Source: Deltaproteobacteria bacterium
GTDB taxonomy: Bacteria; Desulfobacterota; GWC2-55-46; S146-73
Direction of reading: 5' to 3'
Assembly (NCBI GenBank): GCA_015492355.1
Contig: WGFF01000222.1
Coordinates: 1-25,150 of the forward strand
Length of the DNA: 25,150 nucleotides
The stretch's first letter is position 1. Each line of letters begins with the position of its first letter. The notes under the pieces were generated by a model. It was not told the DNA's origin. It ran no database searches and worked only from the letters and a program-made list of their open reading frames with translations. Positions 4,736-25,150 of this stretch are shown here, piece by piece. The position numbers were made by a program, and so were the translations under genes.

Positions 4736-4757
4736 AGGACGAGGTGGATTCTGGAGT

Positions 4758-9356: not shown

Positions 9357-9547
9357 AGGTGAAACGAAAACCGAAGGCTGAGCCTTTTCATAGGGTTTGA
9401 TTGCAGAAAAAGAGTCTGTGGGGAGGTGAGCCACTGTGTGGCTAACAGTGGTCTTCCCTTTTGAGGGTTCATCCCGGGAGTTCAAATCCCTCTCTTGCGA
9501 AGGATGGTGTAACAAAAGACGAAACTATGAAAACCAAAAGGAGGTAG

Positions 9548-10108
9548 ATGATGAGTGCAAGGAAGATGCTGATACTTGCGTCTGTGTTTGTTCTTTGTAT
9601 ACTTCTGAGCCCCTATGAGGTGAGGGCAGGAGAAAATCATCCATGTGGCAAGAATCCATGCGGGATGAAGGTGAAGAAGATAAGGAAGTATCCCTTGAAG
9701 GATATGGAAAAGGCGATGAAGGAGGCTGAAAGGCTGTGGAAGGATCCATCACTCGGTAGTGCTGGTGTATCGTGCTCCACATGCCATCCGAATGGCAGGG
9801 GGCTTAAACAAGAGCCCTTCCCTAAGTACATAAAGATGGCAGGTGATATACTCACACTCGATCAGATGATAAACTTCTGTATCACAAACCCCATGAAGGG
9901 TAAGCCCCTGAGCTGGAACCATCAGAAGCTCACAGCCCTTTCCCTCTATATAAAGATGAAAACACACGGGGTCCATCCCTGTGGTATGAAGCATCCCTGT
10001 GGCATGAAACATCCATGCGGGATGAAACACCCATGTGCTAAACATCCGTGTGCAAAGAATCCATGTGCGGGTAATCCATGTGCCATGAAGCATCCATGCG
10101 GGATGTAG
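9548..10108 (+). CDS. Periplasmic monoheme cytochrome c with probable His/Cys ligation and [H/N]PC repeat arms
   Basis: Signal peptide ending EVRA; CSTCH at 9773-9787; TLDQMINFCITNPMKG resembles the TsdA/SoxA segment carrying the axial Cys; two N-terminal and eight C-terminal [H/N]PC[G/A] units; AAGGAGG ribosome-binding site. Confidence 0.85.
   Translation: MMSARKMLILASVFVLCILLSPYEVRAGENHPCGKNPCGMKVKKIRKYPLKDMEKAMKEAERLWKDPSLGSAGVSCSTCHPNGRGLKQEPFPKYIKMAGDILTLDQMINFCITNPMKGKPLSWNHQKLTALSLYIKMKTHGVHPCGMKHPCGMKHPCGMKHPCAKHPCAKNPCAGNPCAMKHPCGM
9974..10105 (+). repeat. Coding tandem repeat, 8 imperfect 15-18 bp units encoding HPCGMK/HPCAK/NPCAG
   Basis: catccctgtggtatgaag, catccctgtggcatgaaa, catccatgcgggatgaaa and so on; units vary mostly at third codon positions. 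Confidence 0.9.
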
Positions 10109-11196
10109 TCCTTCTCTGGATGGTCTTATTCCTTGTGCCTGGTTATGTTGTGGCAGATGACATAACCCTTTTTGAATACTGGTCAAGACCCCTGAGCATA
10201 GGGGAAAAAACCCCCTATCCAGAGAACTGCGGTGAATGTCATAAAAGACAGTACACGGACTGGATAGGCTCACTACATCGAAGAAGCGTTGGTCCAGGGC
10301 TCCTGAGCCAGTTAAAGCCAGAAGAGTACCCTGATTATGCACTTTCCTGTTACTACTGCCATGCCCCAGCAGTGGAACAGAACGAAATGGTAAGACGGGG
10401 TGATGGGTATGTACGGAACGATTCATTCGACAGGAGGCTCAAGCATTCTGGAATATCCTGTGTCATCTGCCATGTAAGGAAGGGCAGGATATATGGTCCT
10501 GTACCTTCGGGTGATAGGGAAGGGGGACATCCCTTCACAGTAAAGGATTTTTTCTCAAGTGCCGAGTTCTGCAGGGTGTGTCATCAGCTGGATGGAGGAT
10601 ACGAGCTTAATGGCAAGGTGCTCGTCAACACATACAGGGAATGGAAGGAAAGTCCCTATGGAAAGAATAACATAACCTGTCAGCACTGTCACATGCCAGA
10701 TAGAAGGCACCTGTTCAGGGGTATACACGATCCAGAGATGGTAAGAAATGGTGTGGACTTTGAGGTAAGAGGAGGGAAGGAGAAGATAACACTCCTGATC
10801 AAGAATACCGGTGTGGGGCACAACTTTCCTACCTATGTAACACCCCTCGTTGTTGTAAGGGGTTTTGTGGTGGATGGCAGTGGAACGGTGGTTGGTGGCA
10901 CACTCAGGGAGTCGTTCGTGGGGAGAAAGGTTACACTGGACCTTACAGAGGAACTCTTCGATACCCGTATCCCCCCGGGTGGGGAGTTTGGCTTCGAATA
11001 TCCTGTTGATGGTGCAAAAGGAAAGAAGATAGTGCTTGAGGTATGGGTGTATCCAGACGAGTTCTACAACCGCTTCTTTCACTCCGCACTGGAGGATACC
11101 AACTCAGAGGACATAAAGGAGGCATTGGATATAACAGAGAATTCCTTTTATCTTCTTTTTAGAGAGGAGGTGCGTATCCCGGAAAGACCTATGTGA
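10096..11196 (+). CDS. Pentaheme cytochrome c (c554/c552-like multiheme domain plus beta-rich C-terminal domain)
   Basis: CGECH, CYYCH, CVICH, CRVCH, CQHCH; NTGVGHNFPT motif; signal peptide from ATG 10096 (MRDVVLLWMVLFLVPGYVVA), overlapping the upstream stop. Confidence 0.88.
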   Translation: MRDVVLLWMVLFLVPGYVVADDITLFEYWSRPLSIGEKTPYPENCGECHKRQYTDWIGSLHRRSVGPGLLSQLKPEEYPDYALSCYYCHAPAVEQNEMVRRGDGYVRNDSFDRRLKHSGISCVICHVRKGRIYGPVPSGDREGGHPFTVKDFFSSAEFCRVCHQLDGGYELNGKVLVNTYREWKESPYGKNNITCQHCHMPDRRHLFRGIHDPEMVRNGVDFEVRGGKEKITLLIKNTGVGHNFPTYVTPLVVVRGFVVDGSGTVVGGTLRESFVGRKVTLDLTEELFDTRIPPGGEFGFEYPVDGAKGKKIVLEVWVYPDEFYNRFFHSALEDTNSEDIKEALDITENSFYLLFREEVRIPERPM

Positions 11197-11942: not shown

Positions 11943-12644
11943 ATGGAAGCCTTTGTCAACAACATGGAAGTCTACATCGAGTCTTCCATGTTGTTATCCT
12001 TTATTTCTGCCTTTGTTGGAGGAGTGCTTACGAGTTTTACACCATGCGTATATCCCATGATACCCATTACAGCGAGCTTTGTATGCGCGGGTAATATAGG
12101 TGGTTCAAAACTCAGGGGATTTGTCCTCTCCCTTGCCTATGTGTTTGGCATGGCGGTTGTATATTCATCGCTCGGTATATTTGCAGCCCTTACAGGACGC
12201 TTTTTTGGTGAGGTGAGTACAAATCCCTATGCCTATTTCATAGTGGCAAATATTATCATAGCGTGCGGACTCGCCATGCTCGATGTAATCCCCATACCTG
12301 TCCTTGGTGGCAGGGCTGGTGCGACACAGGGGAGGGGAGTGGCAGGTGCTTTTCTTATAGGTATGGCATCTGGTTTTGTCGCTGCACCGTGTACAGCCCC
12401 TGTGCTTGGTGTGCTCCTTGCCTATGTGGCAACAACGCAGAATGTACCATTTGGAGGGGCACTGCTTTTCTTCTTCTCACTCGGGCTCGGTACACTCCTT
12501 GTTCTTGTGGGTACCTTTTCTGGTATACTCGCTACCCTTCCAAGGAGTGGAGAATGGATGTTGAGGCTCAAAAAGGTAATGGGATTCTTCATGATAGCAC
12601 TGGGTGAGTATTTTCTTATAAAGATGGGGGAATTGATAGTCTGA
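11943..12644 (+). CDS. ccdA: Cytochrome c biogenesis protein CcdA (DsbD transmembrane domain)
   Basis: Multi-TM protein with the two catalytic motifs SFTPCVYPMIP and AAPCTAP, plus LPRSGEWM. Confidence 0.92.
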   Translation: MEAFVNNMEVYIESSMLLSFISAFVGGVLTSFTPCVYPMIPITASFVCAGNIGGSKLRGFVLSLAYVFGMAVVYSSLGIFAALTGRFFGEVSTNPYAYFIVANIIIACGLAMLDVIPIPVLGGRAGATQGRGVAGAFLIGMASGFVAAPCTAPVLGVLLAYVATTQNVPFGGALLFFFSLGLGTLLVLVGTFSGILATLPRSGEWMLRLKKVMGFFMIALGEYFLIKMGELIV

Positions 12645-12667
12645 TAGTATGGATGATTGAGGAGGTT

Positions 12668-13162
12668 ATGGTGAGAAAGGGGACTTATACGAGGATTATA
12701 GTGTTATTTCTTTTGTTACTGCCTGTGACAGCAGGTGCAGTGGACGTGGAGGATAGTGCCCCAGATTTTACCCTCAAGACCATGGACAATGGGGAGATAA
12801 GATACAGCGATATCCGTGGCAGGGCGCCACTTTTTGTTGTCTTCTGGGCTACATGGTGTCCGGTATGTAAGGAGGAGATACCGAGGCTCAAGGAGATATA
12901 CTCCAAGTTCAAACCAAAGGGATTAGAATTTATCGCCATAAATGTAGGTGTTAACGATTCGGTCAATAAGGTACGGAGGTACATGAAAAAGTACGCCATC
13001 CATTACCCGGTTGCCTTTGATAAGGGCAGTACTGTTACACGTCTGTACGGTGTGCAGGGAACACCAACCATTGTAATTATAGACCGCAGGGGAACAGTCC
13101 GCTACCGTTCTGCAACGATCCCAGGAGATATTGCAGAACACCTGGATATGCTCATGCGGTAG
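12668..13162 (+). CDS. TlpA/ResA-family thiol-disulfide oxidoreductase
   Basis: Signal/anchor helix, APDFTL, FWATWCPVC active site, YGVQGTPT cis-Pro loop. GAGGAGG precedes ATG 12668 (track start 12653). Directly follows ccdA. Confidence 0.92.
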   Translation: MVRKGTYTRIIVLFLLLLPVTAGAVDVEDSAPDFTLKTMDNGEIRYSDIRGRAPLFVVFWATWCPVCKEEIPRLKEIYSKFKPKGLEFIAINVGVNDSVNKVRRYMKKYAIHYPVAFDKGSTVTRLYGVQGTPTIVIIDRRGTVRYRSATIPGDIAEHLDMLMR

Positions 13163-13197
13163 GGCAACCAAAGGTTACATTAGAGAGGCCGATTCAA

Positions 13198-13797
13198 TTG
13201 ATGCCCCTTAAAAGAGGACGTGATAAAAAGAGATTCAGGGAATTGACCTTTCCGCATCTTAAGTTCCTGTACAATCTGGCTTTGAAGTATACAGGTAAGA
13301 ACCATAGCGCCGAAGACCTTGTGCAGGAGACCATGTATACTGCCTTTAAAAACTTCCATCAACTCAGGCATGATAAAAAGGTCAAGGGATGGCTTGTCTC
13401 TATCCTGAGGAACATATATCTGCGGGAGATTGAGAAGAATGCCAGAAAAGACGAGGTGGACATCGAAGATACACCTGGCATGTACATGGAAAGGCTCAGG
13501 AACCTTTCAGGCTATGCCGATCCAGAAGAGAGTTTTTTGAGAAAGACAGAAGCCCTGGAGATCCAGGCAATTATAGATAAACTTCCAGAGAGATACAAAA
13601 CCCCCCTTCTTCTTTTTTACATGCAGGGGGCATCGTACAGGGAGATCTCTTCTGTACTCAATATACCCATAGGTACTGTCATGTCGAGCATTTCGAGGGC
13701 AAAGGCTTTTGTTAAAAGAGAACTTTTGAGACTCTATGAAGAGAAGAACATGAAGGTTATTAATCTCTACACCATTCGCAAAATAGAAGGAAAATAG
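13198..13797 (+). CDS. ECF-family RNA polymerase sigma factor
   Basis: Region 2 (AEDLVQET...WLVSILRN) and region 4 (LPERYKTPLLL...SYREISSVLNIPIGTVMSSISRAK). Confidence 0.95.
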   Translation: MMPLKRGRDKKRFRELTFPHLKFLYNLALKYTGKNHSAEDLVQETMYTAFKNFHQLRHDKKVKGWLVSILRNIYLREIEKNARKDEVDIEDTPGMYMERLRNLSGYADPEESFLRKTEALEIQAIIDKLPERYKTPLLLFYMQGASYREISSVLNIPIGTVMSSISRAKAFVKRELLRLYEEKNMKVINLYTIRKIEGK

Positions 13798-13800
13798 ACC

Positions 13801-14499
13801 ATGAAATGCGATGAATTCAGGGAGTGGCTTCTGAGAAGGGAGGAATTTCAGGATATATCCGAAAAAGAGGTGGACTACCATATAAGGGATTGTTCCGACT
13901 GCAGGAGGTTGTACAGTATAGATTCTGCACTCGAAGACCTCATAGGGCAGGCATTGAAAAAGGAAGCCCCCATCCCTGATGGTCTTGTAAGGAGAATAGA
14001 ACTCGATCTCAATGAGGTAGGGTCTGTAAAGAAAGATTACCCATTCCTAAATATCCTCTACAGGATAGCAGTCCCAGTCAGTGTGGTAGCGGTGATTCTT
14101 TTTCTTGTTATCTTCTATCCTTCAAGGGATTTCCACAGTGTCGAAGAGATAGGCAGACTTGCGATTAAAAGCCATCTGTCAGACTTCCCCATGGAATTCA
14201 GGGTAGAGGATACGATGGATATATCCGCTTGGTTCAGGGATAGGTTGAGCTACCAGGTATCACCACCCGATATAAAGGGGCTCAAACTCATGGGCGGAAG
14301 GAAATGTAGCCTCGGTAGTAATGAAGTGGCGTATCTGTTCTACAATAACAGTAAAAACGAAAAGGTCTCGGTCTTTGTTATAGACCCTGATAGGGTCGAT
14401 TTCGATATACAGGAGACAAAGGATTATCAGCTGTTCTTCGGGAACAGGGCAGTAAAGGTATGGAAGAAAAACGGGCTCGTCTATGCCATGGTGGAATGA
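13801..14499 (+). CDS. Transmembrane anti-sigma factor with zinc-binding (zf-HC2/ZAS) N-terminus
   Basis: MKC...HIRDCSDC (HxxxCxxC), one central TM helix and a periplasmic C-terminal domain; lies 3 bp after the sigma gene. Confidence 0.88.
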   Translation: MKCDEFREWLLRREEFQDISEKEVDYHIRDCSDCRRLYSIDSALEDLIGQALKKEAPIPDGLVRRIELDLNEVGSVKKDYPFLNILYRIAVPVSVVAVILFLVIFYPSRDFHSVEEIGRLAIKSHLSDFPMEFRVEDTMDISAWFRDRLSYQVSPPDIKGLKLMGGRKCSLGSNEVAYLFYNNSKNEKVSVFVIDPDRVDFDIQETKDYQLFFGNRAVKVWKKNGLVYAMVE

Positions 14500-15710: not shown

Positions 15711-15989
15711 ATGTTCTTCAAGGTAATACTGGAGTGTGGGCATGTAGGTGCGGGGAATTGCCATGAGATAACGAAATTTATAGAGAGTAAAGATCCTGTT
15801 ACAGCCTTTCAAATAGCGGGTCGCATGGGAATGGTGAAGAAAAAGAAAGGCTTAAGAGGGGTAAAACTCCTGAAAAGGATAAGCCCTGAAGAATACATGT
15901 ACGGAAAAGGACTACATCCGAATACCGAAGGTTTTTCCACGATTCGATGGAAAGACCTTAAAAGTAAGAGGTCTGCACCAACGGCATAA
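15711..15989 (+). CDS. Small basic hypothetical protein with CGHVGAGN motif (paralog of 7688-7978)
   Basis: AAAGGAGG ribosome-binding site; motif shared with 7688-7978. Confidence 0.75.
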   Translation: MFFKVILECGHVGAGNCHEITKFIESKDPVTAFQIAGRMGMVKKKKGLRGVKLLKRISPEEYMYGKGLHPNTEGFSTIRWKDLKSKRSAPTA

Positions 15990-16088: not shown

Positions 16089-19000
16089 ATGATAAGGGAT
16101 AGAGAACCTGTTGGCATTATGTGTTTCATGTGGTTTTTGGTCGTTTCTTTTTTCTCAATTCTCATCTTTCTGCCGTACAGGGTGATGGCTAAAGAAGAGG
16201 TGGTAGTACATCCGCCTATACCACTTCTCGATGAGGATGGAGAGCATGTACTTACAAGTGGGCGTCCCTATTCATCGAGAAAAAGTTGTGGTAACAACGA
16301 GGGCAGTGGTTGCCACAACTATGACTCCATAACCCATGCCTATCACTTCGAGATGGGAAGGAACGAGGCAAGGGATTGGTTTGGAAAGGTACGCAAGCTA
16401 CCCCATCTCGTCTCTCCAGGCTATTTTGGTGGTTACGCCTGCATGGGAGGTAACAATCCAGAGGTACTCGCAAAGAAGGTCAATACAACCGAAGATAGGT
16501 TTGCGGATAGGGGTTCACCTGGATGGGTACTTCGTTGTAGTGGTTGTCACCCAGGTGGTGGATGGATGGAAAGGGATAGGGAAGGCATAAGGTACGACAG
16601 GAGAGACCCAACAACAATACCATACCTTGATGGTGACTACTACAACAGGGGTACAACAGATTCCAATGAACCAGCAGGGTCTGATGTTGTATCCCTGTGG
16701 GACTGGAGGAAAAGTGGCGTTGCAGAGGCAGATTGTCTTATGTGTCATGTGGATCTGAGCAGGCTCAAGAAGTTCGATCCACAACTTTTAGGTAGTGGTA
16801 CAAGCAGTGCCCTGGATCACTTCAGAACACTGAGGAGGACCTATCTTGCAGGGCAGGGTTTTTTCCGTTTTATGGGTACAGCCATACTGGAATTTATAAA
16901 CCTCAACACAACGGATGACAACTCAAAGGACGAGTCAGCTGTAACATTCAGACGTACCTTGAATGGAGAACACAATGTACATACCAGGACAAAACCCCTC
17001 TACAGCCTTGTACTGAACGATGACGGAGAGCCCATACTCGACTGGAATGAATCAGCCTTCGATGGAGATAGAAAGATAGCCATCCCTATGCTTCGTTTTC
17101 CCGATAATGATAACTGTATGCTGTGTCACAGAACAAGCCCTGGTAGAAGAGGGTTTTACGGCTTCGGAGATGATGCAGAACCTACCTATGACGAAGATGG
17201 CATCCTTATAGATGAAAACTACAAGTATGACATTCACAAGGGCAAACCCTGGACAGAGAACGGCGTTACAAAGAAGATAGACAACTGTAATGCTTGCCAT
17301 TCAAGGCTTTATTTCAGACCAACATGGCAGAGCACAGACCTTGATGCAGACCATAACATTCTCAAAGGAAACTCTGATATGGACTGTGCAAACTATCTCG
17401 ATTATAGACCCAATGCAAGATCGTGCGAGTACTGCCATAATGATGCACCAAATCCTGCCATCCCATCGGGTCATAGCGATATGCTCTCTGCCCATACTGA
17501 GAGATGGAGGGCAAAGGGGGACCTCAAGGGGTATCCAAAGGACTCACTCCCAAGGATAGTCAAGGCACATCTGGATTCCATCTCATGCCAGGCATGTCAT
17601 ATAACCGGCAAGAAGGACAGACGGGGTAAACCCATACAGATTATGTATCGCTACCGTATAGGTCCAAAGGGTGGGCTACAGATTATACCCTACAATCCCA
17701 GGATACGGTACTACTGGAAGGACAGAAACAGCGGATACATACTGAACAGGACAGAACGAAACAGTGTGTTCATGCTTGCAAGGGATGATGAGGGTAAAGA
17801 TATAGGTGTAATAGTGGATCCAGTAAGTGGAGAGTCCTTTGGTGTCAGTGTATCCGCAAGGATGTCTCACGGTTCGTGGCGTTTTGGTGAACCAGACAGT
17901 TACGAAGGATACATCGCCCTTAAAAAGGCATACGACAGACTCCTTATGAAAAAGGGTTTTAATAACCCCGATTGTGTAATGGTCTGGATAGAATCCAATG
18001 AATATGTGATGTCTCATAACACAAGGAGTGCCACTGCATCACTTCAGTGTGCGGATTGCCATAGTAAGAAGCAGGACGGCTCATTTAGTGCCATTCTCTC
18101 ACCAGATGGCCTCCTCGGGACAGGGAATGTCAAGACCGTTACTACCCTGCCCACAAAAAGACTCGTTGAGGAGGGCATAGTTGAACTCGGAATGCCGTAC
18201 ATGAAGATAGATGCGGATGGAGTGGTTACGGAGAATGTATCCGACATACTCTATGCAACAAAGATAAATCCGTCTCTGTCGATACTGAATTCAGCGGTGC
18301 TAAATACAATAGCCCTTCCACCAAGGCTCCTTACACAAACCGAGGCTTTATCAGAGGCTAATATACACGATCATGAGGATATGCAGATGGTAAAGAGCCT
18401 TCTTTCCACAGAAAAGATATTCATCTTCAGATCCAATTACGGTAGCGACGAGGTAAGAAAGGTTGTAATCCTTGCAAGTGCAGATACATACACAAGGTTG
18501 TTATTTCCAACCTATACCGCAGAGATATCACTCGCAGATGAGAGGATAGTTAAGGATCTATCCAATCTTGGTATAGGCAACGTGGTTGGTGATGTTTTTT
18601 CGATGAGGGCATTCAATGCCTCTGGAGAGGAGATTAGCAGTTTCCCCGGTGATGGAGTGGTTGTAAAGATACCTTACAGAGGAACCAGTATCAGCAAAGA
18701 AAGGATAAAGATAATAACATCGCAGGATGGGACAGACTGGAATCTACTTGATCCAGAAAGGATACTCTCCATAAGAGTGGGTGATAACGGAACAGAAGGT
18801 TATGTCCTCTTCCGTACCGAGCACTTCAGTTACTATGGCATTGTGGATACATCCAGGTACATATCAGGCAGTGACCTTGTAGACTCGGTGCAGACCAAGG
18901 AAGGTGGTTGCTTCATTGCAACTGCTGTATACGGCTCATACAGTGATCCCCATGTGAAGGTACTAAGGAAGTTCAGGGACAGGGTGCTTCTCTCTTTTGA

Positions 19001-19235
19001 TGTGGGTAGAAGACTCGTTGAATTTTACTATACCTATAGCCCTTCATTTGCCACATGGCTTAAGGATAGTACAGTTGTAAAGGGTCTTGTAAGAGGAGCA
19101 CTCCTACCGGTCTACTGGCTGGCATACTTCATGGTGGGGATTACCCTTACAGAGCAGATACTGATAGCCACACCTGTGATATCTGCCGGTGTGATCTATA
19201 TCGTCATGAGAAGAAGGTCTGAGAAGACCGCATAG
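16089..19235 (+). CDS. Large exported octaheme cytochrome c (octaheme tetrathionate reductase-like heme pattern) with beta-rich surface domain and CFI-box-CTERM
   Basis: Seven CxxCH (CSGCH, CLMCH, CMLCH, CNACH, CEYCH, CQACH, CADCH) plus CGNNEGSGCH (CX7CH). C-terminal GGCFIATAVYGS...VLRKFRD...YYxYSP followed by hydrophobic helices. AAAGGAGG at 16071-16078 favours ATG 16089 (track start 16008). Confidence 0.82.
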   Translation: MIRDREPVGIMCFMWFLVVSFFSILIFLPYRVMAKEEVVVHPPIPLLDEDGEHVLTSGRPYSSRKSCGNNEGSGCHNYDSITHAYHFEMGRNEARDWFGKVRKLPHLVSPGYFGGYACMGGNNPEVLAKKVNTTEDRFADRGSPGWVLRCSGCHPGGGWMERDREGIRYDRRDPTTIPYLDGDYYNRGTTDSNEPAGSDVVSLWDWRKSGVAEADCLMCHVDLSRLKKFDPQLLGSGTSSALDHFRTLRRTYLAGQGFFRFMGTAILEFINLNTTDDNSKDESAVTFRRTLNGEHNVHTRTKPLYSLVLNDDGEPILDWNESAFDGDRKIAIPMLRFPDNDNCMLCHRTSPGRRGFYGFGDDAEPTYDEDGILIDENYKYDIHKGKPWTENGVTKKIDNCNACHSRLYFRPTWQSTDLDADHNILKGNSDMDCANYLDYRPNARSCEYCHNDAPNPAIPSGHSDMLSAHTERWRAKGDLKGYPKDSLPRIVKAHLDSISCQACHITGKKDRRGKPIQIMYRYRIGPKGGLQIIPYNPRIRYYWKDRNSGYILNRTERNSVFMLARDDEGKDIGVIVDPVSGESFGVSVSARMSHGSWRFGEPDSYEGYIALKKAYDRLLMKKGFNNPDCVMVWIESNEYVMSHNTRSATASLQCADCHSKKQDGSFSAILSPDGLLGTGNVKTVTTLPTKRLVEEGIVELGMPYMKIDADGVVTENVSDILYATKINPSLSILNSAVLNTIALPPRLLTQTEALSEANIHDHEDMQMVKSLLSTEKIFIFRSNYGSDEVRKVVILASADTYTRLLFPTYTAEISLADERIVKDLSNLGIGNVVGDVFSMRAFNASGEEISSFPGDGVVVKIPYRGTSISKERIKIITSQDGTDWNLLDPERILSIRVGDNGTEGYVLFRTEHFSYYGIVDTSRYISGSDLVDSVQTKEGGCFIATAVYGSYSDPHVKVLRKFRDRVLLSFDVGRRLVEFYYTYSPSFATWLKDSTVVKGLVRGALLPVYWLAYFMVGITLTEQILIATPVISAGVIYIVMRRRSEKTA

Positions 19236-19242
19236 AATGGAT

Positions 19243-19279
19243 AAAAACGGGCAGGTACTGTTTTTATGCCTGCCCGTTT
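19243..19279. terminator. GC-rich stem-loop after the octaheme gene (terminator or processing/stability hairpin)
   Basis: aaacgggcagg (19245-19255) and cctgcccgttt (19269-19279) form a perfect 11-bp inverted repeat. The U-tract is better on the minus strand than on the plus strand. Confidence 0.55.
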
Positions 19280-19302
19280 CGTTCTTTCTCAAGGAGGTCT
19301 TT

Positions 19303-19530
19303 ATGGAGGGGATAAGGCAGAAGGGTTTTAAGATACTTGAGAGATTGATCCCATGGATCGCTGGAGGAGGGATGTCAGCAGGCAGTGGATTGTTTTCGAT
19401 CTACTGCACTGTCCCGAGAGCAGGCAGTTGTTCCTTCTGCGGGGGCTGTGCGGTTGCGATCTTTTCCCTTGCAGGATGGGCTATTCTCAAGGGTGGATTG
19501 ACCAGAAGGTGCTACAGAGAAGACAGGTGA
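19303..19530 (+). CDS. Small (75 aa) membrane protein with C-X7-C-X2-C-X2-C motif
   Basis: AAGGAGG at 19291-19297 precedes ATG 19303; two hydrophobic segments flank CTVPRAGSCSFCGGC; GTGA overlap with the porin start. Confidence 0.65.
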   Translation: MEGIRQKGFKILERLIPWIAGGGMSAGSGLFSIYCTVPRAGSCSFCGGCAVAIFSLAGWAILKGGLTRRCYREDR

Positions 19531-20759
19531 GATACGGTCTGGTATTTTTCTACACGGTGGTATTCTTTTTCTGGCTCTTAAGTGATGTGTACGCAGGTAC
19601 AGAGATAAGACTCGATACCCTCTTTATGATGGACAATCGTTTTTTTAAAAAGAGGGTGATAATAGAGGAATGGATAGATATTACATACACGAACAGGAGA
19701 AAGGATATATCAAGCAACTTAAGTGTTGCTGGAAGGCTATGTGAAGATGGATGGTATGACAGTATCTATAAATTGTATGTAGAAGGAGGTTTCAACCTTA
19801 TAGATACATCTATAAGGTTTGGAAGGTTCGAGCATATAGGTCCATCAGGCTATCTCATACTCGATGGTGCCTCAATAAAGACCACAATGGATGGTATCCA
19901 TGTGGAGTTCTATGGTGGCAGTACCAGAAGGATAGAGGACTACATAGAAGCAGTGGATACCAGATGGATAGGAGGAATCGATCTTTTCTTCTCAGGAAGG
20001 GAGAGATATATCCCAGTATGGCTCAATACTGTAGAAGGTAGGATAGGATATTACAGAATAGATCCATTCGATACAGGAGAGGATGGATTTACATGGAGCG
20101 GATTTATATCTGGTGGGAGGGACGATGAAGGTGGATGGTTTGTGGTGTCTGAAGGCAATGTTGTTGCAGAGGGTATGAGAGCCGAAAGGGTATCTATGGA
20201 ATTGGGGCTTTCTCTTTTTAAGAAGGGAGAGATAAGGACAATCTATGAGATGTACAACCCTGACTCTGGCTATCTCACCCTTCGGGATAGATTCTACCTC
20301 CGTTACACTAAGGGATACGAGAGGACCTACGGAGTGGACATACATTATCCATTGAAAAGCCTTACATTCTACTGGAAAGGAAGAAGGGGATTTCACGGTA
20401 TCGGTAAAGACGGATACTCTACCCTTGCTGGCTTGGAGAAGGGCTTACGGGATGGCATGCGTATGGGTGCTGAGGCAGTTTACATCAAGATGGAAGAGGA
20501 TACATCATTCAGTATGTTTACCAAGTCCAGGATACCACTTTCTGAGCGGAGTACCATCAAGGTGGATGGAATGTGGCAGTTACAGAGAAAAGAGACAACA
20601 GGCAAAAACATAGGTGCGGGATTTTATTCCACCCTCGAGATGATGTTACAGGGGGATATCTTTGTTTCCATATATGCCATGCATGTATGGAACGATAATC
20701 TGGATGACGAATACATGGCAGGTGTACGGGTTACGAAATTTTTGAACTATTCTTATTGA
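19527..20759 (+). CDS. Outer-membrane beta-barrel porin of a porin-cytochrome complex
   Basis: GTG 19527 gives a signal peptide ending DVYA. Amphipathic beta-strand pattern throughout, aromatic C-terminus (EYMAGVRVTKFLNYSY), RFGRF motif, and it lies immediately upstream of three multiheme cytochromes. Confidence 0.75.
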   Translation: MRYGLVFFYTVVFFFWLLSDVYAGTEIRLDTLFMMDNRFFKKRVIIEEWIDITYTNRRKDISSNLSVAGRLCEDGWYDSIYKLYVEGGFNLIDTSIRFGRFEHIGPSGYLILDGASIKTTMDGIHVEFYGGSTRRIEDYIEAVDTRWIGGIDLFFSGRERYIPVWLNTVEGRIGYYRIDPFDTGEDGFTWSGFISGGRDDEGGWFVVSEGNVVAEGMRAERVSMELGLSLFKKGEIRTIYEMYNPDSGYLTLRDRFYLRYTKGYERTYGVDIHYPLKSLTFYWKGRRGFHGIGKDGYSTLAGLEKGLRDGMRMGAEAVYIKMEEDTSFSMFTKSRIPLSERSTIKVDGMWQLQRKETTGKNIGAGFYSTLEMMLQGDIFVSIYAMHVWNDNLDDEYMAGVRVTKFLNYSY

Positions 20760-20763
20760 GACG

Positions 20764-21363
20764 ATGGGGATAAGGGTTTTACGGATAGTATCTATTATTG
20801 TATTCATCGTTTGTTTTCAAAGCCTTCATGCCATTGGTGAGGATAAAAAGGGAATATGGTGGAAGAAAAAAAGGGAAAGTCTTTATTTCCCGCACAATGT
20901 ACATTTCAGAATACTGAAGGATAGGGGGGATCCATGTATGAGGTGTCATCCCTTTCTTCCAAACCAGGTGAGAGAACCAGGGCTTATACGAGAGATAACA
21001 CGTATTGTTAACGAACCACTTAAAGGTATCTGTCACAGCTGTCATGTGGTAGACAGGACTGCCTCTTCTGAATGCACTATATGTCATTTGAATCCAGAGG
21101 CCATACGTCCAGAAGGTCATGGTAAGGATTATACCTATCTTCACGGATATGATGCACTGAAGGATAGACCCAGATGTAGTGATTGTCACGTAAACACTGG
21201 ATTCTGCACGGGGTGTCATTTCAGAAGGGATACGGCAAGAAAGGTACTCCATGGGATAGGCTATCGCAAAAGGCACGGTATAGACGCAAGACTATCCACT
21301 GGTAGATGCGCCAGGTGTCATAGCAATCCATTCTGCAATAGATGTCACACAGGTACAAGATAA
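20764..21363 (+). CDS. Periplasmic heptaheme cytochrome c
   Basis: Signal peptide ending LHA; FPHNVH; CMRCH, CHSCH, CTICH, CSDCH, CTGCH, CARCH, CNRCH in 199 aa. Confidence 0.9.
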   Translation: MGIRVLRIVSIIVFIVCFQSLHAIGEDKKGIWWKKKRESLYFPHNVHFRILKDRGDPCMRCHPFLPNQVREPGLIREITRIVNEPLKGICHSCHVVDRTASSECTICHLNPEAIRPEGHGKDYTYLHGYDALKDRPRCSDCHVNTGFCTGCHFRRDTARKVLHGIGYRKRHGIDARLSTGRCARCHSNPFCNRCHTGTR

Positions 21364-22310
21364 TACTCATAGCCACATTATTTCTGTTATGCATAGGATG
21401 TGGTGCTGGAACAGATGAAGAAAGACGTTCCAGTATATCATCCGTACAGTCCTCAAGCCTTTTACTTACCCCATCCCACACAGGCTGGGGACTTCGGGAC
21501 TGCAAGGCATGTCACCCTCTATCTGTTATACACAGGGATAGAGGGGTCATAAAGGATATGGTCTCTGTGAAGGGTTTCACAACGTGTATGGGCTGTCATG
21601 GCGATAACGGTACAGATGGAGAGAGAAGATGTACCGTGTGTCATAACAAAAATGACATGCCTCTTAAACCCTATCAACATGGTGGGCATGTACACGGCTT
21701 TAGTGGGGATAATGGTCTTGAGGATTCAGAATGTATCATCTGCCACGATTCATCCAACATGAATGGTGTGTTCACCCCTTACAATGACCTTACCATCTTT
21801 ATGGATGAACATGGCACCTACTCAGAGTATACCAGTATATTTGAGTTCTGCCTCAGATGCCACAACAGATATCATCAGCAACCTGGTTTTGAAATCACAG
21901 GATATGAGTACACTAACCCACTTGTTGCGATGGAGGATAATTACAGATTTATCGACAGGCATGGCACTGTGGATGGTACAGGCGATGGTATATACAGGGG
22001 GCTACGGGAAGGCTATGAATACGGAACCTCTCTTGAGTGTACAGAGTGCCATAATGTACACGGAACCACCAACCCGTTCCTCCTGATAGACAGTACGGTT
22101 GCTGGTGTGAGGGGCCTTGACAGCAGTATAAGACTCCGTCCATACAGTATCGAGATAGATGGAGGTAATCTGTCTCAGCTATGTGTCATCTGCCACAAGA
22201 TGGATACGGTTCTGGATGATGGTGACAGGGATACGGGTAACGGACTTTCAGGTGTTCATTATGTGGAGTCCGATTGCACGGACTGTCATACCCACGGGGC
22301 TGGCTTATGA
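21342..22310 (+). CDS. Octaheme cytochrome c lipoprotein
   Basis: Lipobox-like LLCIG-C at residue 20 followed by a Ser-rich linker; CKACH, CMGCH, CTVCH, CIICH, CLRCH, CTECH, CVICH, CTDCH. Confidence 0.88.
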   Translation: MSHRYKIILIATLFLLCIGCGAGTDEERRSSISSVQSSSLLLTPSHTGWGLRDCKACHPLSVIHRDRGVIKDMVSVKGFTTCMGCHGDNGTDGERRCTVCHNKNDMPLKPYQHGGHVHGFSGDNGLEDSECIICHDSSNMNGVFTPYNDLTIFMDEHGTYSEYTSIFEFCLRCHNRYHQQPGFEITGYEYTNPLVAMEDNYRFIDRHGTVDGTGDGIYRGLREGYEYGTSLECTECHNVHGTTNPFLLIDSTVAGVRGLDSSIRLRPYSIEIDGGNLSQLCVICHKMDTVLDDGDRDTGNGLSGVHYVESDCTDCHTHGAGL

Positions 22311-23191
22311 AGATTATACCTGCATATATTACGTTCTTTACCATGATGTCTCTTTTATCCTTTACATCCCTGTGTGTCGGAGAGGAGGGAACAATCCATC
22401 CCCATCCTGTAGATGTAACGATTCCAGACGATATGGATGTACCTGAAAATTTCCCTTTGGGAGAGAACAGGACACTTCTGTGTGATACGTGCCATGGTGT
22501 AAGAGGGCTTGAGAACATAAGGAAGGCTAAATTGGATTCAGATTCAAAAGACTTTCTCAGGGGTGGACCCTATGAGGACCTCAAGGAGTTCTGTTATAGA
22601 TGTCATATAAAGAGGTATTACAGAAAGAGGCCCTTTCACAGGATGATAGGAAAGGACGGACGTATTATCAAAGAGAGGTGCATTTACTGCCATGTGGATG
22701 TGCCTGAACCAAGGTCAGCACATACTACCCGGGATGTAAGATTTCGCCTGCCACCAGAGAAGTTATGTATCGGTTGTCATCTACTTTCGCCACATTTCAA
22801 TTCCATGAATCATCTGGTAGAACCATCTGAAAGTGTAAGGAAGGCTATAAAAGGCTCTGAAAGAAAATACAATGTGAAATTGCCACTCGACTCACAGGGA
22901 CGGATTATGTGTGCAACATGTCATACTCCACACCAAAAAGGTGTGCTGAAACCAGATAATCCATCTGCAACACAGGTTGCGGATACAGATATCGAAGAAG
23001 GTATCGTTTATGTGGAATCTCCCTGGAACAGTATCTTTATGGATGACAAGGGAAAAAGGTTCAAGGAATTCTCATCTAATACAGGTATATCTTTGAACAT
23101 CGAATACAAGGAGGTGAAAAAGGAGGTCCTTTTGAGACTTCCGGCAAAGGATGGCACCCTCTGTACTGCATGTCATACATTCAGGGAATAA
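22307..23191 (+). CDS. Periplasmic hexaheme cytochrome c (doubled-CxxCH type)
   Basis: ATG 22307 overlaps the upstream TGA and gives a signal peptide; CDTCH, CYRCH, CIYCH, CIGCH, CATCH, CTACH; MCATCHTPH...LLR...LCTACH pattern. Confidence 0.88.
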   Translation: MKIIPAYITFFTMMSLLSFTSLCVGEEGTIHPHPVDVTIPDDMDVPENFPLGENRTLLCDTCHGVRGLENIRKAKLDSDSKDFLRGGPYEDLKEFCYRCHIKRYYRKRPFHRMIGKDGRIIKERCIYCHVDVPEPRSAHTTRDVRFRLPPEKLCIGCHLLSPHFNSMNHLVEPSESVRKAIKGSERKYNVKLPLDSQGRIMCATCHTPHQKGVLKPDNPSATQVADTDIEEGIVYVESPWNSIFMDDKGKRFKEFSSNTGISLNIEYKEVKKEVLLRLPAKDGTLCTACHTFRE

Positions 23192-23194
23192 GCC

Positions 23195-25150
23195 ATGAAC
23201 ATACCAAAGTGGCAGAAGATACGTTACGGGCTTATAGGGTTATCCTGTGTACTCTTCTTTGCTCCACTTTCTTTTATACCTGGTCTATTCGGTAGCAGGG
23301 ATTTCTGCGGCATTCTGTGTATGAGGCGCTTTTATCTTTATTGGCCCGGTATGAGTGTAGAGGACCTCACCTTTCAGGTGATGGTATCCATAGGCGGTGT
23401 AATACTACTCTGTGTGATACTGGTTGTAACATTCCTTTTTGGACGCCTGTGGTGCGGGTATGTCTGTCCTGTAGGAGGTTTCCCTGAACTTGTGAGCCGT
23501 ATGCTCGGTGAAAGGATAAAGATAGATTACCGTGTGCTTCCGCAGGCTCCCATCAGGTACGGTTATCTCGGCTTTTATCTTGTAACGATGCCAGTGCTCG
23601 GGATAAGCGCATGCACACTGTGTAACTTTATTGTCCTTCCGCGTATTTTCGATGCATTAAGTGGGGGGAGGGAAGGTATCATGTATCTACTTACCTCTGT
23701 AGGTCTTACAAACCTTGCCCTTGTATTTCTTCTTGGTTTCTTTGCACACAAGGGAAGGGCATACTGTTCGTTTCTGTGTCCCATCGGTGCAATAGATGGC
23801 ATCGTTAACAGGATAGGCGCATCTTTCGGTTTTACAAGACGTATCCGTGTTTCCATGAGTAGATGCAATGGATGCGGAGTATGTGCAATCACCTGTATGT
23901 GTGGAGCGATAAGTATCCACAGAGACAAGGCTGTGGTGGATCAACTCTCGTGCATGTCCTGTCATGAATGTGTGGATGTGTGTGCTGCAGATGCAATAGA
24001 ATATCTTGTAATACCACCGGCTGGAAGAACACAGAGATCCCCCCGCTGTAGGGAGATAGAACCTGTATGGACAGGTGTATATAGCAAAACAGGCATAAAC
24101 GTAAAAAGGATATTCCTCATGTCCCTGACAGCAGTGGTTATTGCCTTCATATTCGTTACCCAGGTCTATGCAGGGAAGAGGAGAACCGATCCAGAAGGAT
24201 GCCTTACATGCCATGCTATCAAGGGGCTTCAATATATAGATAATAACGGACTTTTAAGAGATGCCACCATAGATGAATCCCACTACTATTCATCCATACA
24301 CGGAGGCATTCCTTGCAGGGATTGTCATGCCGGGATTGAACGCTTTCCCCATGATGCCAAAAAGGGAGGGGTGGATTGTGCGAACCGATGCCACATAAAC
24401 GAACCATCGAGCAACGCAAGATATTCACACAAGGATATAGTGGATGAATTCAAGGATTCCGTACACGGTAATGGTGCTACCAGCGGGTTTACCGGTAGAA
24501 ATCGCCTTGATGAGACCGTTTCACTTCTTCCATCATGTCGTAGATGTCACAGTAATACCCTGTATGTGGATGATAAGAGAATAGATGAGTTCAAAGAGGT
24601 TTTTAAAGACTGCGAGCGTGAATGTGGCAGATGCCACAGGGGAAGGGCATGGCGTTCACAATCGGCAGGACATATTATCAGAAGGCTTCTCGGTGCAAGA
24701 CGGACAAAGAAGGAAGAGATAGCACTATGTAACGGATGTCATGGCGATGTGGAGATGATGAAGGAGGTGGAACTCGAGGATAAAAAGACGGGAAAGAAAA
24801 AGAGAGCCGATGAGAGGTTTATCATGGCTGGTACAAGTTACTTACTTACCCTCCACGGGAGGCTCCTTGAAAGGAATAACCAGTACGGTACATCCTGTAT
24901 GGACTGTCACGCACCACAGGATTACAGGCACAGAATACTCCGCTCAGACAATCCCCTTTCATCGACCCACATAAAAAATCTCCCACACACCTGTGGTAGC
25001 GTATGTCATGACTATGCGGACATACCCCTCAACACCGCTTTTTTAACTACTGATATGCACCCACTGGATCTCACCCCCCTTGATACGAAGGATATATTTA
25101 GAGCCATGTGGAGAGAACCATCAGGATGGTTTGTATCTGTACTTATACTC
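23195..25150 (+). CDS. NapH/MauN-like 4Fe-4S membrane protein fused to a CbcL-like multiheme cytochrome c domain (3' partial; absent from ORF track)
   Basis: Manual translation: open from ATG 23195 for 652 codons to the window edge with no stop. Contains GRLWCGYVCP, RAYCSFLCP, CNGCGVCAITC and CMSCHECVDVC, a TM helix, then CLTCH, CRDCH, CANRCH, CRRCH, CGRCH, CNGCH, CMDCH, CGSVCH with S(I/V)HG spacers; a new hydrophobic stretch starts at the edge. Confidence 0.85.
   Translation, partial: MNIPKWQKIRYGLIGLSCVLFFAPLSFIPGLFGSRDFCGILCMRRFYLYWPGMSVEDLTFQVMVSIGGVILLCVILVVTFLFGRLWCGYVCPVGGFPELVSRMLGERIKIDYRVLPQAPIRYGYLGFYLVTMPVLGISACTLCNFIVLPRIFDALSGGREGIMYLLTSVGLTNLALVFLLGFFAHKGRAYCSFLCPIGAIDGIVNRIGASFGFTRRIRVSMSRCNGCGVCAITCMCGAISIHRDKAVVDQLSCMSCHECVDVCAADAIEYLVIPPAGRTQRSPRCREIEPVWTGVYSKTGINVKRIFLMSLTAVVIAFIFVTQVYAGKRRTDPEGCLTCHAIKGLQYIDNNGLLRDATIDESHYYSSIHGGIPCRDCHAGIERFPHDAKKGGVDCANRCHINEPSSNARYSHKDIVDEFKDSVHGNGATSGFTGRNRLDETVSLLPSCRRCHSNTLYVDDKRIDEFKEVFKDCERECGRCHRGRAWRSQSAGHIIRRLLGARRTKKEEIALCNGCHGDVEMMKEVELEDKKTGKKKRADERFIMAGTSYLLTLHGRLLERNNQYGTSCMDCHAPQDYRHRILRSDNPLSSTHIKNLPHTCGSVCHDYADIPLNTAFLTTDMHPLDLTPLDTKDIFRAMWREPSGWFVSVLIL

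What the first reader, a model, noticed from the sequence alone, without database searches (positions are those of the whole stretch)
16089..25150. Apparent complete quinone-to-cell-surface electron conduit with an unusual parts list
Seen: seven contiguous co-directional genes, several with overlapping stop/start codons. They encode a putatively surface-anchored octaheme cytochrome, a Cys-cluster membrane peptide, a porin, a 7-heme periplasmic cytochrome, an 8-heme lipoprotein, a 6-heme cytochrome and an inner-membrane Fe-S/multiheme fusion, with 34 CxxCH plus 3 atypical heme motifs. Established: porin + periplasmic multiheme + lipoprotein multiheme is the porin-cytochrome architecture (MtrCAB, Geobacter Ext/Omb-Oma-Omc). 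Inference: this locus encodes every stage from the quinone pool to an extracellular catalytic enzyme. The heme counts (7/8/6) and the inner-membrane and terminal components do not match the MtrCAB or CymA layouts I know, so it may be an undescribed extracellular electron transfer system.
Basis: partly seen in the sequence, partly recalled or inferred. Interest (0 to 1): 0.88.

Follow-up and report, generated by a model that had tools for sequence, protein, structure and literature searches.

The report
Conserved uncharacterised porin-cytochrome electron conduit
This hydrothermal-vent bacterium carries one end-truncated copy of a widely conserved but unstudied gene set that probably wires the cell's inner membrane to its outer surface with about 37 haem groups, and the same set occurs in sulfur-oxidising symbionts, giant sulfur bacteria, methane oxidisers and nitrifiers.

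Summary
Seven tightly packed co-directional genes encode:
- a sorted octahaem surface cytochrome;
- a 75-aa four-Cys membrane hairpin;
- a 22-strand plugless outer-membrane barrel (pLDDT 90.7);
- a 7-haem periplasmic cytochrome;
- an 8-haem lipoprotein;
- a 6-haem cytochrome;
- a NapH-type Fe-S membrane protein fused to an octahaem domain.

The locus is not unique. The same genes, in the same order and with the same 7/8/6 haem counts, occur in about 65 fetched loci. Most are Gammaproteobacteria (Beggiatoaceae, Thiodiazotropha, Sedimenticola, tubeworm symbionts, Methylococcales), plus Nitrosomonas and three genomes of this MAG's own phylum.

The conserved module has nine genes. A 3-haem membrane cytochrome and an NHL-propeller/12-16-haem cytochrome follow the seven, and here the contig end cuts them off.

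It fits none of the described layouts I could test or compare: MtrCAB, PCC3/PCC4, Uet or the D. ferrophilus clusters. I found no paper that describes it.

All eight haems of the surface protein can be bis-His, and its profile matches no solved octahaem enzyme.

Best reading: a new variant of the porin-cytochrome conduit whose direction of electron flow is unknown. This scan had already met the same family on other DNA (e1-4802168, e1-4827837).

The parts
16089..19235 (+). g1: 1048-aa secreted octahaem cytochrome with a beta-rich C-terminal region and a CFI-box-CTERM sorting/anchor domain
   Evidence: Seven CxxCH motifs are invariant in 46 homologues, and a conserved first site has variable Cys spacing. 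The MtrC/MtrF II-IV domain scores 33.4 bits against a cut-off of 30. CFI_box_CTERM scores 87.4 bits against a cut-off of 40. RBS AGGAGG precedes the start.
16287..16316 (+). Atypical first haem site of g1 (CX7CH here)
   Evidence: The Cys...Cys-His columns are invariant. Spacing is CX2, CX3, CX4 or CX7 in different homologues.
18909..19112 (+). CFI-box-CTERM domain of g1, followed by a hydrophobic helix and a basic tail
   Evidence: 92.8 bits; helix at residues 1022-1040. Orthologues carry JDVT-CTERM, GlyGly-CTERM or MYXO-type signals instead, or none.
19303..19530 (+). g2: 75-aa two-helix membrane hairpin with invariant C-x7-C-x2-C-x2-C
   Evidence: Homologues found between g1 and g3 in about 55 of the fetched loci; 54 sequences, the window's included, were aligned. 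Invariant residues G21, C35, G41, C43, C46, C49 and W59. RBS AAGGAGG. No family match, apart from one member with a weak FeoB-associated Cys-rich hit.
19527..20759 (+). g3: 410-aa outer-membrane 22-strand beta-barrel without a plug
   Evidence: AlphaFold2 on 48 homologues gives pLDDT 90.7, pTM 0.81 and 22 strands. The best structural matches are barrels of TonB-dependent transporters (Z 20.8 and 20.2); MtrB scores Z 16.6. No Pfam, NCBIfam or PDB sequence match.
20764..21363 (+). g4: 199-aa heptahaem periplasmic cytochrome (28 aa per haem), the likely barrel insert
   Evidence: Signal peptide and 7 CxxCH. Seven haems in every one of 64 homologues.
21342..22310 (+). g5: 322-aa octahaem lipoprotein
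   Evidence: Lipobox L-C-I-G-C followed by Gly at +2, and 8 CxxCH. Eight haems in almost all homologues, with 16 or 24 in three. A lipobox-like motif recurs in the family: a strict pattern is met by 33 of 65 over-extended ORF calls.
22307..23191 (+). g6: 294-aa hexahaem periplasmic cytochrome
   Evidence: Signal peptide and 6 CxxCH. Six haems in all full-length homologues.
23195..25150 (+). g7, truncated by the contig end: NapH-type 4-TM polyferredoxin, then a fifth TM helix, a periplasmic octahaem domain, a sixth TM helix and a basic tail
   Evidence: NapH/MauN 71 bits and Fer4_5 59 bits. Two CX3CP motifs and two CxxCxxCxxxC motifs are conserved in 56 homologues, and eight haem sites are conserved, one CX3CH and one of variable spacing. 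Helices at residues 13-31, 64-82, 125-149, 165-183, 306-324 and 647-665.

Best explanation
The locus is the first seven genes of a conserved nine-gene porin-cytochrome module. It links the quinone pool, or a cytoplasmic donor, to the outside of the outer membrane.

Inferred path:
1. g7 is a NapH-type membrane polyferredoxin. It exchanges electrons at the inner membrane and passes them directly to its own fused periplasmic octahaem domain.
2. The hexahaem g6 bridges the periplasm.
3. The very haem-dense heptahaem g4 sits inside the plugless 22-strand barrel g3.
4. The octahaem lipoprotein g5 caps the barrel on the outer face.
5. The octahaem g1 is exported and held at the surface through a C-terminal sorting signal. 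It is the contact to an insoluble or extracellular redox partner.

The four-Cys hairpin g2 is an obligatory accessory of unknown role. The two missing downstream genes add further haems: a 3-haem membrane cytochrome and an NHL-propeller cytochrome with 12-16 haems.

What is shown: the gene content, the motifs, the barrel fold, and the conservation of order and haem numbers. What is inferred: the locations, the contacts between proteins and the electron path.

The direction of flow is unresolved. In this host I lean slightly to outward flow. The host has a [NiFeSe] hydrogenase and a type II secretin, and no RuBisCO or DsrA was found in the 85%-complete MAG. Outward flow would mean respiration of extracellular Fe(III), Mn(IV), sulfur or a partner.
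For: - The genes are packed like an operon, and three junctions overlap.
- The barrel is predicted with high confidence. It matches the 22-strand barrels of TonB-dependent transporters over the barrel part only, so the lumen that a plug of about 150 aa fills in those proteins is empty here. Mature g4 has about 175 aa.
- A barrel gene sits next to a dense periplasmic multihaem cytochrome and a multihaem lipoprotein. That is the defining layout of MtrCAB and of the Geobacter Pcc/Ext conduits (established knowledge; PMC6148476).
- Same order and same 7/8/6 haem counts in about 65 loci, at only 22-55% identity.
- g1 orthologues carry four different C-terminal sorting domains at the same position: CFI-box, JDVT-CTERM, GlyGly-CTERM and MYXO-type. 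This is typical of exported, surface-attached proteins.
- The only other CFI-box protein in this genome is an M6 secreted-type protease.
- A GspD secretin is present.
- g7 keeps every NapH hallmark and all eight haem sites.
- Contigs from two marine-sediment metatranscriptome runs, mostly at least 99% identical, lie on a Thiodiazotropha-type copy. They cover g1, g3, g5, g6 and g7 and cross the g5/g6 and g6/g7 junctions.
Against: - There is no experimental datum for any member of the family.
- No complex model was run, so a barrel-cytochrome fit is argued from size alone.
- A C-terminal helix could simply anchor g1 in the inner membrane.
- The sorting machinery for CFI-box domains is unknown to me.
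- The RNA-library contigs may include contaminating DNA.
- The locus is incomplete here. The two d1/d2-like gene pairs on short contigs C335 and C242 cannot be linked to it.
Confidence: 0.7

Rival explanations
1. Same conduit, run inward. It would take electrons from extracellular Fe(II), reduced sulfur minerals, a cathode-like surface or a partner cell, and deliver them to the quinone pool or to the c-type cytochrome/oxidase chain.
For: - Nearly all other carriers are lithotrophs that oxidise reduced compounds: sulfur oxidisers, symbionts, methanotrophs and Nitrosomonas.
- The window also encodes a bd-like oxidase with three c-type cytochromes, and a second porin with cytochromes.
- The conduits proposed for iron oxidisers and electroautotrophs (MtoAB, PCC3, Uet) have the same general build.
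Against: - NapH-type modules are known as quinol dehydrogenases that feed periplasmic acceptors (established knowledge of NapGH).
- No RuBisCO was found in this 85%-complete MAG, and the host has a hydrogenase as a ready electron donor.
- Nothing in the sequence fixes a direction.
Confidence: 0.3
2. A respiratory enzyme system confined to the periplasm. g1 would be a membrane-anchored octahaem reductase or oxidase for a soluble N or S compound (nitrite, hydroxylamine, tetrathionate, polysulfide), fed by a NapH-type quinol dehydrogenase. The barrel would be only a substrate porin.
For: - g1 is very strongly conserved: 143 positions are at least 95% conserved across 46 sequences.
- There are weak motif-level hits to the octahaem tetrathionate reductase family.
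- By default, a C-terminal helix anchors a protein in the inner membrane.
- In Desulfurivibrio dismutans a differently built multihaem locus with a terminal octahaem protein is strongly differentially expressed between sulfur-disproportionating and nitrate-ammonifying (DNRA) growth, and the authors read it as upregulated under DNRA (PMC12142623).
- Many carriers respire nitrate.
Against: - Eight conserved non-motif His serve eight haems, and there is no CxxCK.
- A 23-sequence profile finds no solved octahaem enzyme at E up to 1. The hit to the tetrathionate reductase model is 24.8 bits against a cut-off of 375.
- Interchangeable sorting signals point to export.
- A plugless 22-strand barrel is far wider than a small-solute porin needs to be.
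- The lipoprotein and the wire-like cytochrome have no role in this reading.
Confidence: 0.15
3. The barrel and its neighbours export or anchor a polymerising cytochrome, a nanowire-type filament, rather than forming a static conduit.
For: - NHL-propeller proteins and large multihaem proteins accompany the cluster.
- Ushers with 24-strand barrels are among the structural matches.
Against: - No similarity to OmcS, OmcE or OmcZ was found in the PDB sequence searches with g1, g5 or their profiles.
- g3 has no usher plug or periplasmic domains.
- The fixed small haem counts fit a stoichiometric complex.
Confidence: 0.05

Closest known systems
Geobacter porin-cytochrome conduits (OmaB-OmbB-OmcB; ExtABCD, ExtEFG, ExtHIJKL; PMC6148476)
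   Same: A barrel gene flanked by a periplasmic multihaem cytochrome and one or more multihaem lipoproteins. Haem numbers are modest, and the module works without MtrB-type proteins.
   Different: The haem counts differ: 7/8/6 here, against 8/12 in OmaB/OmcB and 12/5/5 in ExtACD (from memory). Those clusters have no NapH-type fusion, no four-Cys hairpin and no sorted octahaem protein. Sequence homology to ExtB or OmbB could not be tested here.
MtrCAB / MtoAB / PioAB
   Same: The architecture: a cytochrome threaded through a barrel with a surface lipoprotein cytochrome. The model of g3 superposes on MtrB at Z 16.6.
   Different: - g3 has 22 strands and about 410 aa, against 26 strands and about 650-700 aa.
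- No MtrB_PioB match in any of 48 family members.
- DmsE/MtrA and OmcA/MtrC models score far below their cut-offs: 41 against 192 bits and 23 against 209 bits.
- The inner-membrane entry is NapH-type, not CymA.
PCC3 / PCC4 of neutrophilic iron oxidisers (He et al. 2017, PMC5566968)
   Same: Bioinformatically defined porin-cytochrome clusters. Some of the hosts are the same, such as tubeworm symbionts and Methylococcaceae. Each has its own inner-membrane component.
   Different: PCC3 cytochromes have a median of 34 and 21 haems and low-complexity repeats. The PCC3/PCC4 inner-membrane proteins have 5 TM helices with two WX3HX13H motifs and are presumed b-type. Here the haem counts are 7/8/6/8 and the membrane protein is an Fe-S polyferredoxin.
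Uet cluster of Tenderiales (bioRxiv 10.1101/2022.05.06.490989)
   Same: A conserved multi-gene module in gammaproteobacterial lithotrophs with a barrel, several small cytochromes and NHL-propeller proteins.
   Different: Uet has a tetrahaem cytochrome, a prolyl isomerase, a 28-strand barrel, three trihaem c7 proteins, a cupredoxin and an undecahaem cytochrome. It has no inner-membrane Fe-S/haem fusion.
NapH of NapGH (quinol dehydrogenase of periplasmic nitrate reductase), and its relatives MauN, NosH and CcoG
   Same: The N-terminal 300 aa of g7 have four TM helices, two CX3CP motifs and two cytoplasmic CxxCxxCxxxC clusters.
   Different: g7 scores 71 bits against the family cut-off of 213. 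It is fused through an extra helix to an octahaem domain and a second anchor. In Methylococcales and Nitrosomonas copies the two halves are separate genes.

Membership tests
Porin-cytochrome conduit (functional class) | An outer-membrane beta-barrel gene adjacent to a periplasmic multihaem cytochrome gene | tested here: met
   g3 is a 22-strand barrel at pLDDT 90.7. g4, with 7 haems and a signal peptide, starts 4 nt downstream.
Porin-cytochrome conduit (functional class) | A multihaem lipoprotein for the outer face | tested here: met
   g5 has a lipobox with Gly at +2 and 8 haems. A lipobox-like motif recurs among homologues (33 of 65 by a strict pattern). Surface exposure itself was not tested.
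Porin-cytochrome conduit (functional class) | Physical insertion of the cytochrome in the barrel and electron transfer across the membrane | not testable with these tools
MtrCAB/MtoAB/PioAB | MtrB/PioB-family barrel (PF11854, TIGR03509) | tested here: not met
   No hit for g3 or for any of 48 family members. The family profile does not find MtrB among PDB sequences.
MtrCAB/MtoAB/PioAB | DmsE/MtrA decahaem and OmcA/MtrC decahaem cytochromes | tested here: not met
   TIGR03508 scores 41.3 bits against a cut-off of 192. TIGR03507 scores 22.9 bits against 209. Haem counts are 7, 8, 6 and 8.
PCC3/PCC4 (He et al. 2017) | A 5-TM inner-membrane protein with two WX3HX13H motifs, and very haem-rich repeat cytochromes | tested here: not met
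   g7 is a NapH-type Fe-S protein with 6 helices. Haem counts are small and fixed. The definition was read.
Uet (Tenderiales) | The uetA-J parts list: undecahaem cytochrome, three c7 trihaem proteins, cupredoxin, prolyl isomerase and a 28-strand barrel | tested here: not met
   The parts lists differ. Only the NHL-propeller theme is shared, through the downstream gene d2.
Geobacter Omb/Oma/Omc and Ext conduits | Sequence homology of the barrel and cytochromes to OmbB/ExtB and OmaB/ExtA | not tested
   The libraries used hold no such models, and I fetched no reference sequences. This gap is the main one in the novelty claim.
NapH/MauN ferredoxin-type membrane proteins (for g7 residues 1-300) | Four TM helices, two CX3CP motifs and two 4Fe-4S CxxCxxCxxxC motifs | tested here: met
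   All are present and conserved in 56 homologues. The score against TIGR02163 is 71 bits, below the cut-off of 213, so g7 is a divergent relative and not an equivalog.
Octahaem tetrathionate reductase (OTR) family (for g1) | A match to TIGR04315 or to solved OTR, and an active-site haem with a Lys ligand | tested here: not met
   24.8 bits against a cut-off of 375. The single sequence and a 23-sequence profile find nothing in the PDB at E up to 1. Eight non-motif His are conserved.
CFI-box-CTERM proteins (for the g1 C-terminus) | A match to NF041770 at the extreme C-terminus, followed by a hydrophobic helix | tested here: met
   87.4 bits and 92.8 bits against a cut-off of 40. Helix at residues 1022-1040.

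The most novel reading that the evidence does not exclude
This is a fourth, independent family of outer-membrane electron conduits. Its features are its own barrel family, a NapH-type Fe-S/octahaem inner-membrane entry, a four-Cys mini-subunit and a surface octahaem protein that uses interchangeable sorting signals. It would give major chemolithotroph groups (lucinid and tubeworm symbionts, giant sulfur bacteria, methanotrophs, nitrifiers and this vent hydrogen oxidiser) a so far unrecognised ability to exchange electrons with minerals or partner cells. It has moved between phyla as a unit.
Probability: 0.45. Interest if true: 0.8.

Novelty: new variant of a known kind. Interest (0 to 1): 0.62.

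Why it matters
If the module works as inferred, extracellular electron transfer is not confined to the classic metal reducers and iron oxidisers. It would also be a standard option for sulfur-oxidising animal symbionts, Beggiatoaceae, marine and freshwater methanotrophs, and some nitrifiers. That bears on how these organisms survive anoxia at redox interfaces, and on sulfur, methane and iron budgets in sediments and at vents.

The family also offers compact, well-conserved parts for mechanistic and synthetic work: a 410-aa barrel, a 175-aa heptahaem insert and a one-polypeptide membrane entry. The variable Cys spacing at one haem site in each of the two terminal proteins raises a tractable question about haem attachment.

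Tried and rejected
- The single-sequence fold of the barrel failed (pLDDT 34.5). It was replaced by a fold on a 48-sequence alignment.
- The word-index search of 5.8 billion proteins found only the barrel protein itself. Full phmmer found 63 relatives.
- Literature. Eight full-text searches and seven papers were read for a description of this cluster. All of these differ in parts:
  - the Methylobacter MtrAB-like cluster;
  - PCC3/PCC4;
  - Desulfobacterota Mtr/Omc/Pcc and peat EET systems;
  - Uet;
  - the D. ferrophilus DFE clusters, which have no porin;
  - the D. dismutans RS02815-02855 locus, whose membrane protein is of the cytochrome b type.
- Searches for the accession and sample codes and for 'CFI-box' returned nothing useful.
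- OTR-like catalytic reading of g1: rejected on profile searches and on the count of His ligands.
- ESM Atlas look-up of g1 gave only a generic MtrC-domain cytochrome cluster at 0.88.
- I tried to link the short own-genome contigs C335 and C242, which carry d1/d2-like pairs, to the window end. No sequence overlap was found.
- Taxonomy. The rpoB scan gave at best 67% identity, to Myxococcota and Syntrophales-type records. The phylum is therefore only loosely placed as 'deltaproteobacterial-type', not Gammaproteobacteria.

Full report
**What is in the sequence.**
The window is one whole 25,150-bp contig of a 2.07-Mb, 85%-complete MAG. The MAG comes from hydrothermal-vent metagenomes. From 16089 to the contig end, seven + strand genes follow each other with gaps of +67, -4, +4, -22, -4 and +3 nt. 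No convincing internal + strand terminator was found.

Start codons:
- g1 starts at 16089, behind AGGAGG.
- g2 starts most plausibly at 19303, behind AAGGAGG, which gives 75 aa.
- g3 starts at the GTG at 19527, which overlaps the g2 stop.
- Public gene callers chose an upstream ATG for g3 (468 aa) and so missed g2.

The five cytochrome genes hold 35 CxxCH motifs, against 0.22 expected from residue shuffles. One lies in a ferredoxin motif. With CX7CH in g1 and two CX3CH in g7, the count is 37 haem sites: 8 in g1, 7 in g4, 8 in g5, 6 in g6 and 8 in g7.

**The parts.**

*g3 (barrel).* g3 has no Pfam, NCBIfam or PDB sequence match. A single-sequence fold failed. Full phmmer against 1.8 billion representatives found 63 relatives. 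With 47 of them as alignment, AlphaFold2 gives a 22-strand barrel at pLDDT 90.7 and pTM 0.81. An exhaustive structural comparison puts the barrels of TonB-dependent transporters first (Z 20.8 and 20.2, aligned to the barrel part only). Usher pores follow, and MtrB scores Z 16.6. g3 therefore has the calibre of a transporter barrel but lacks the roughly 150-aa plug. Its neighbour g4 is a secreted protein of about 175 aa with seven haems, 28 aa per haem, which is wire-like density.

*g5 and g6.* g5 has a lipobox with Gly at +2 and eight haems. g6 is a secreted hexahaem protein.

*g7 (inner-membrane entry).* The first 300 residues of g7 have four helices, two invariant CX3CP motifs and two CxxCxxCxxxC motifs. 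This is the NapH/MauN build, at 71 bits and below the equivalog cut-off. A fifth helix leads to a periplasmic domain with eight conserved haem sites and nine conserved extra His. A sixth helix and a Lys-rich tail are visible only on the longer ENA contig.

*g1 (surface octahaem).* g1 has a signal peptide and eight haem sites, all conserved. The first site varies from CX2CH to CX7CH among homologues. It also has an MtrC/MtrF-type pentahaem domain just above threshold, a beta-rich C-terminal region and a CFI-box-CTERM domain.

*g2 (Cys hairpin).* g2 is a two-helix hairpin whose short loop and second helix carry an invariant C-x7-C-x2-C-x2-C. It matches no family. One member has a weak hit to FeoB-associated Cys-rich membrane proteins.

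**Conservation.**
A scan of species-representative genomes with g7 returned 80 loci. tblastn with all seven proteins shows the whole block, in the same order, wherever the contig is long enough.

Across these loci the haem counts are fixed:
- g4 has 7.
- g5 has 8, with three expansions to 16 or 24.
- g6 has 6.
- g1 has 7 or 8 canonical motifs, depending on how the first site is spaced.

Identities to the window are about 50% for g1, g5 and g7, about 40% for g4 and g6, and 22-30% for the barrel.

The carriers are Beggiatoaceae, Ca. Thiodiazotropha, Sedimenticola, tubeworm endosymbionts, Chromatiales-type MAGs, Methylococcales including Methyloprofundus, and Nitrosomonas. In the Methylococcales/Nitrosomonas branch g7 is two genes, NapH-like plus cytochrome.

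Two more genes follow g7 in 65-68 of the loci. d1 is a membrane-anchored 3-haem protein. d2 is an NHL beta-propeller fused to 12-16 haems. The conserved unit is thus nine genes, and the window lacks the last two because the contig ends. Every public assembly of this DNA breaks in or just after g7. Two short contigs of the same MAG carry d1/d2-like pairs, but they could not be joined to the window.

**Distribution and history.**
The host's rpoB is at most 67% identical to anything the scan found, and the nearest records are Myxococcota- and Syntrophales-type. The host is not a gammaproteobacterium.
- In its own order the barrel was found in 1 of 60 other genomes.
- In a 400-genome sample of its phylum, g5 homologues were found in 3. 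One of them (G109) carries the full g1-g7 block, again with a CFI-box g1.
- In a 400-genome sample of the class of a gammaproteobacterial carrier, 6 had it.
- A concatenated g4-g5-g6 tree (FastTree, midpoint-rooted, supports not inspected) puts the four copies from the host's phylum in one clade, nested among gammaproteobacterial branches.

This fits one inter-phylum transfer of the whole module. Without an outgroup the direction of transfer stays open.

**Where g1 sits.**
At the same C-terminal position, orthologues carry different sorting signals or none:
- CFI-box-CTERM in the host's phylum;
- JDVT-CTERM (47.7 and 39.9 bits against a cut-off of 27);
- GlyGly-CTERM (18.7 bits against 15.5);
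- a MYXO/GC-RRR-type signal;
- no signal in Methylococcales and Nitrosomonas.

Swapping of sorting tags on one orthologue is what one expects for a protein that each lineage exports and tethers with its own machinery. The only other CFI-box protein in this genome is an M6 immune-inhibitor-A-type protease with an InlB B-repeat domain, a typical secreted protein. A GspD secretin is present. This supports surface location but does not prove it.

**Is g1 an enzyme?**
Three results argue against that:
- The OTR model scores 24.8 bits against a cut-off of 375.
- Neither g1 nor a 23-sequence profile finds any solved structure at E up to 1, although OTR, ONR, NrfA, HAO, MtrC and OcwA are all in the PDB.
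- There are eight conserved non-motif His for eight haems, and no CxxCK.

Its very high conservation remains unexplained. It keeps the catalytic reading alive at low probability.

**Mechanism and direction.**
The best-supported reading is a porin-cytochrome conduit running g7, g6, g4 inside g3, g5, then g1. d1 and d2 would act as a further membrane entry and a large periplasmic or surface haem store.

Only the parts and their conservation are shown. Contacts and direction are inferred. The host has a [NiFeSe]-type hydrogenase with an in-frame TGA, a haem-copper-oxidase-like gene and the bd-like oxidase in this window. No DsrA or RuBisCO was found. I therefore lean slightly to outward flow here. 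The lithotrophic habits of most carriers keep inward flow a serious rival.

Expression evidence is thin. Contigs from two marine-sediment metatranscriptome libraries, mostly at least 99% identical, cover g1, g3, g5, g6 and g7 of a Thiodiazotropha-type copy. They cross two gene junctions. DNA carry-over is not excluded. No RNA run holds the window itself.

**Comparison with known systems.**
- It works like MtrCAB and the Geobacter Pcc/Ext conduits, but it fails the testable membership features of the Mtr family.
- It differs in parts from PCC3/PCC4, Uet, the porin-less D. ferrophilus clusters and the cytochrome-b-based D. dismutans locus.
- Homology to Geobacter OmbB or ExtB could not be tested. 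This is the main caveat.
- I found no paper that describes this module.
- Earlier follow-ups in this scan reached the same family through g7 homologues in two other genomes and called it a conserved, unstudied nine-gene system. My independent synteny and downstream-gene analysis agrees.

**Verdict.**
The locus is a 3'-truncated member of a conserved, uncharacterised variant of the porin-cytochrome conduit. It is notable here for lying outside the Gammaproteobacteria, for its CFI-box tag and for the CX7CH site.

Noticed in passing
window 7688-7978 and 15711-15989: Two paralogous basic proteins of about 92-96 aa share an N-terminal LECGHVGAGN motif and have no signal peptide. One lies directly before a porin gene, the other directly before g1. 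No Pfam family matches. They are not conserved next to the cluster in other genomes.
   Followed up: partly
window 7959-11196: A possible second outer-membrane redox module: an Alginate_exp-like 465-aa barrel, a SoxA/TsdA-type monohaem cytochrome, and a 5-haem c554/MtrC-domain cytochrome.
   Followed up: no
window 291-6383: A 735-aa protein with only the N-terminal part of cytochrome bd subunit I. It is followed by three membrane-anchored c-type cytochromes, one of which has an ethylbenzene-dehydrogenase-like haem b domain.
   Followed up: no
window 11943-14499: CcdA/DsbD-type thiol transporter plus a thioredoxin-like protein (accessory factors of cytochrome c maturation), then an ECF sigma factor with a probable anti-sigma factor. 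They lie just upstream of the cluster and could serve or regulate it.
   Followed up: no
window 19353-19526, and loci L004/L005: Public gene calls extend the barrel gene 58 codons upstream, across g2 in another frame. As a result the conserved 75-aa g2 is not annotated in any public record of this DNA.
   Followed up: yes
L050, L069, L070 (Methylococcales loci): The octahaem lipoprotein g5 is expanded to 16 or 24 CxxCH, apparently by tandem duplication of the whole 8-haem unit, while g4 and g6 keep 7 and 6.
   Followed up: no
L179 13381-16287 (genome G109, same phylum): g7 and the downstream 3-haem protein d1 appear fused into one 968-aa reading frame with 10 CxxCH plus 2 CxxxCH. In L003 d1 may instead be joined to the NHL-cytochrome.
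   Followed up: partly
own genome, contig C360 2160-3620: A [NiFe] hydrogenase large subunit with one in-frame TGA, as expected for a selenocysteine-containing [NiFeSe] enzyme.
   Followed up: no
own genome, contigs C335 and C242: Two short contigs each carry a gene pair: a d1-like 3-haem membrane cytochrome, then an NHL propeller. On C335 the propeller protein ends after 341 aa without a haem domain. They are either the missing 3' end or paralogues.
   Followed up: partly
g7 residue 600 (window about 24992-25009) and g1 residue 67: In both terminal cytochromes one conserved haem site has a Cys-Cys spacing that varies among orthologues: CX2 to CX4 in g7 and CX2 to CX7 in g1. All other sites are rigid.
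   Followed up: partly
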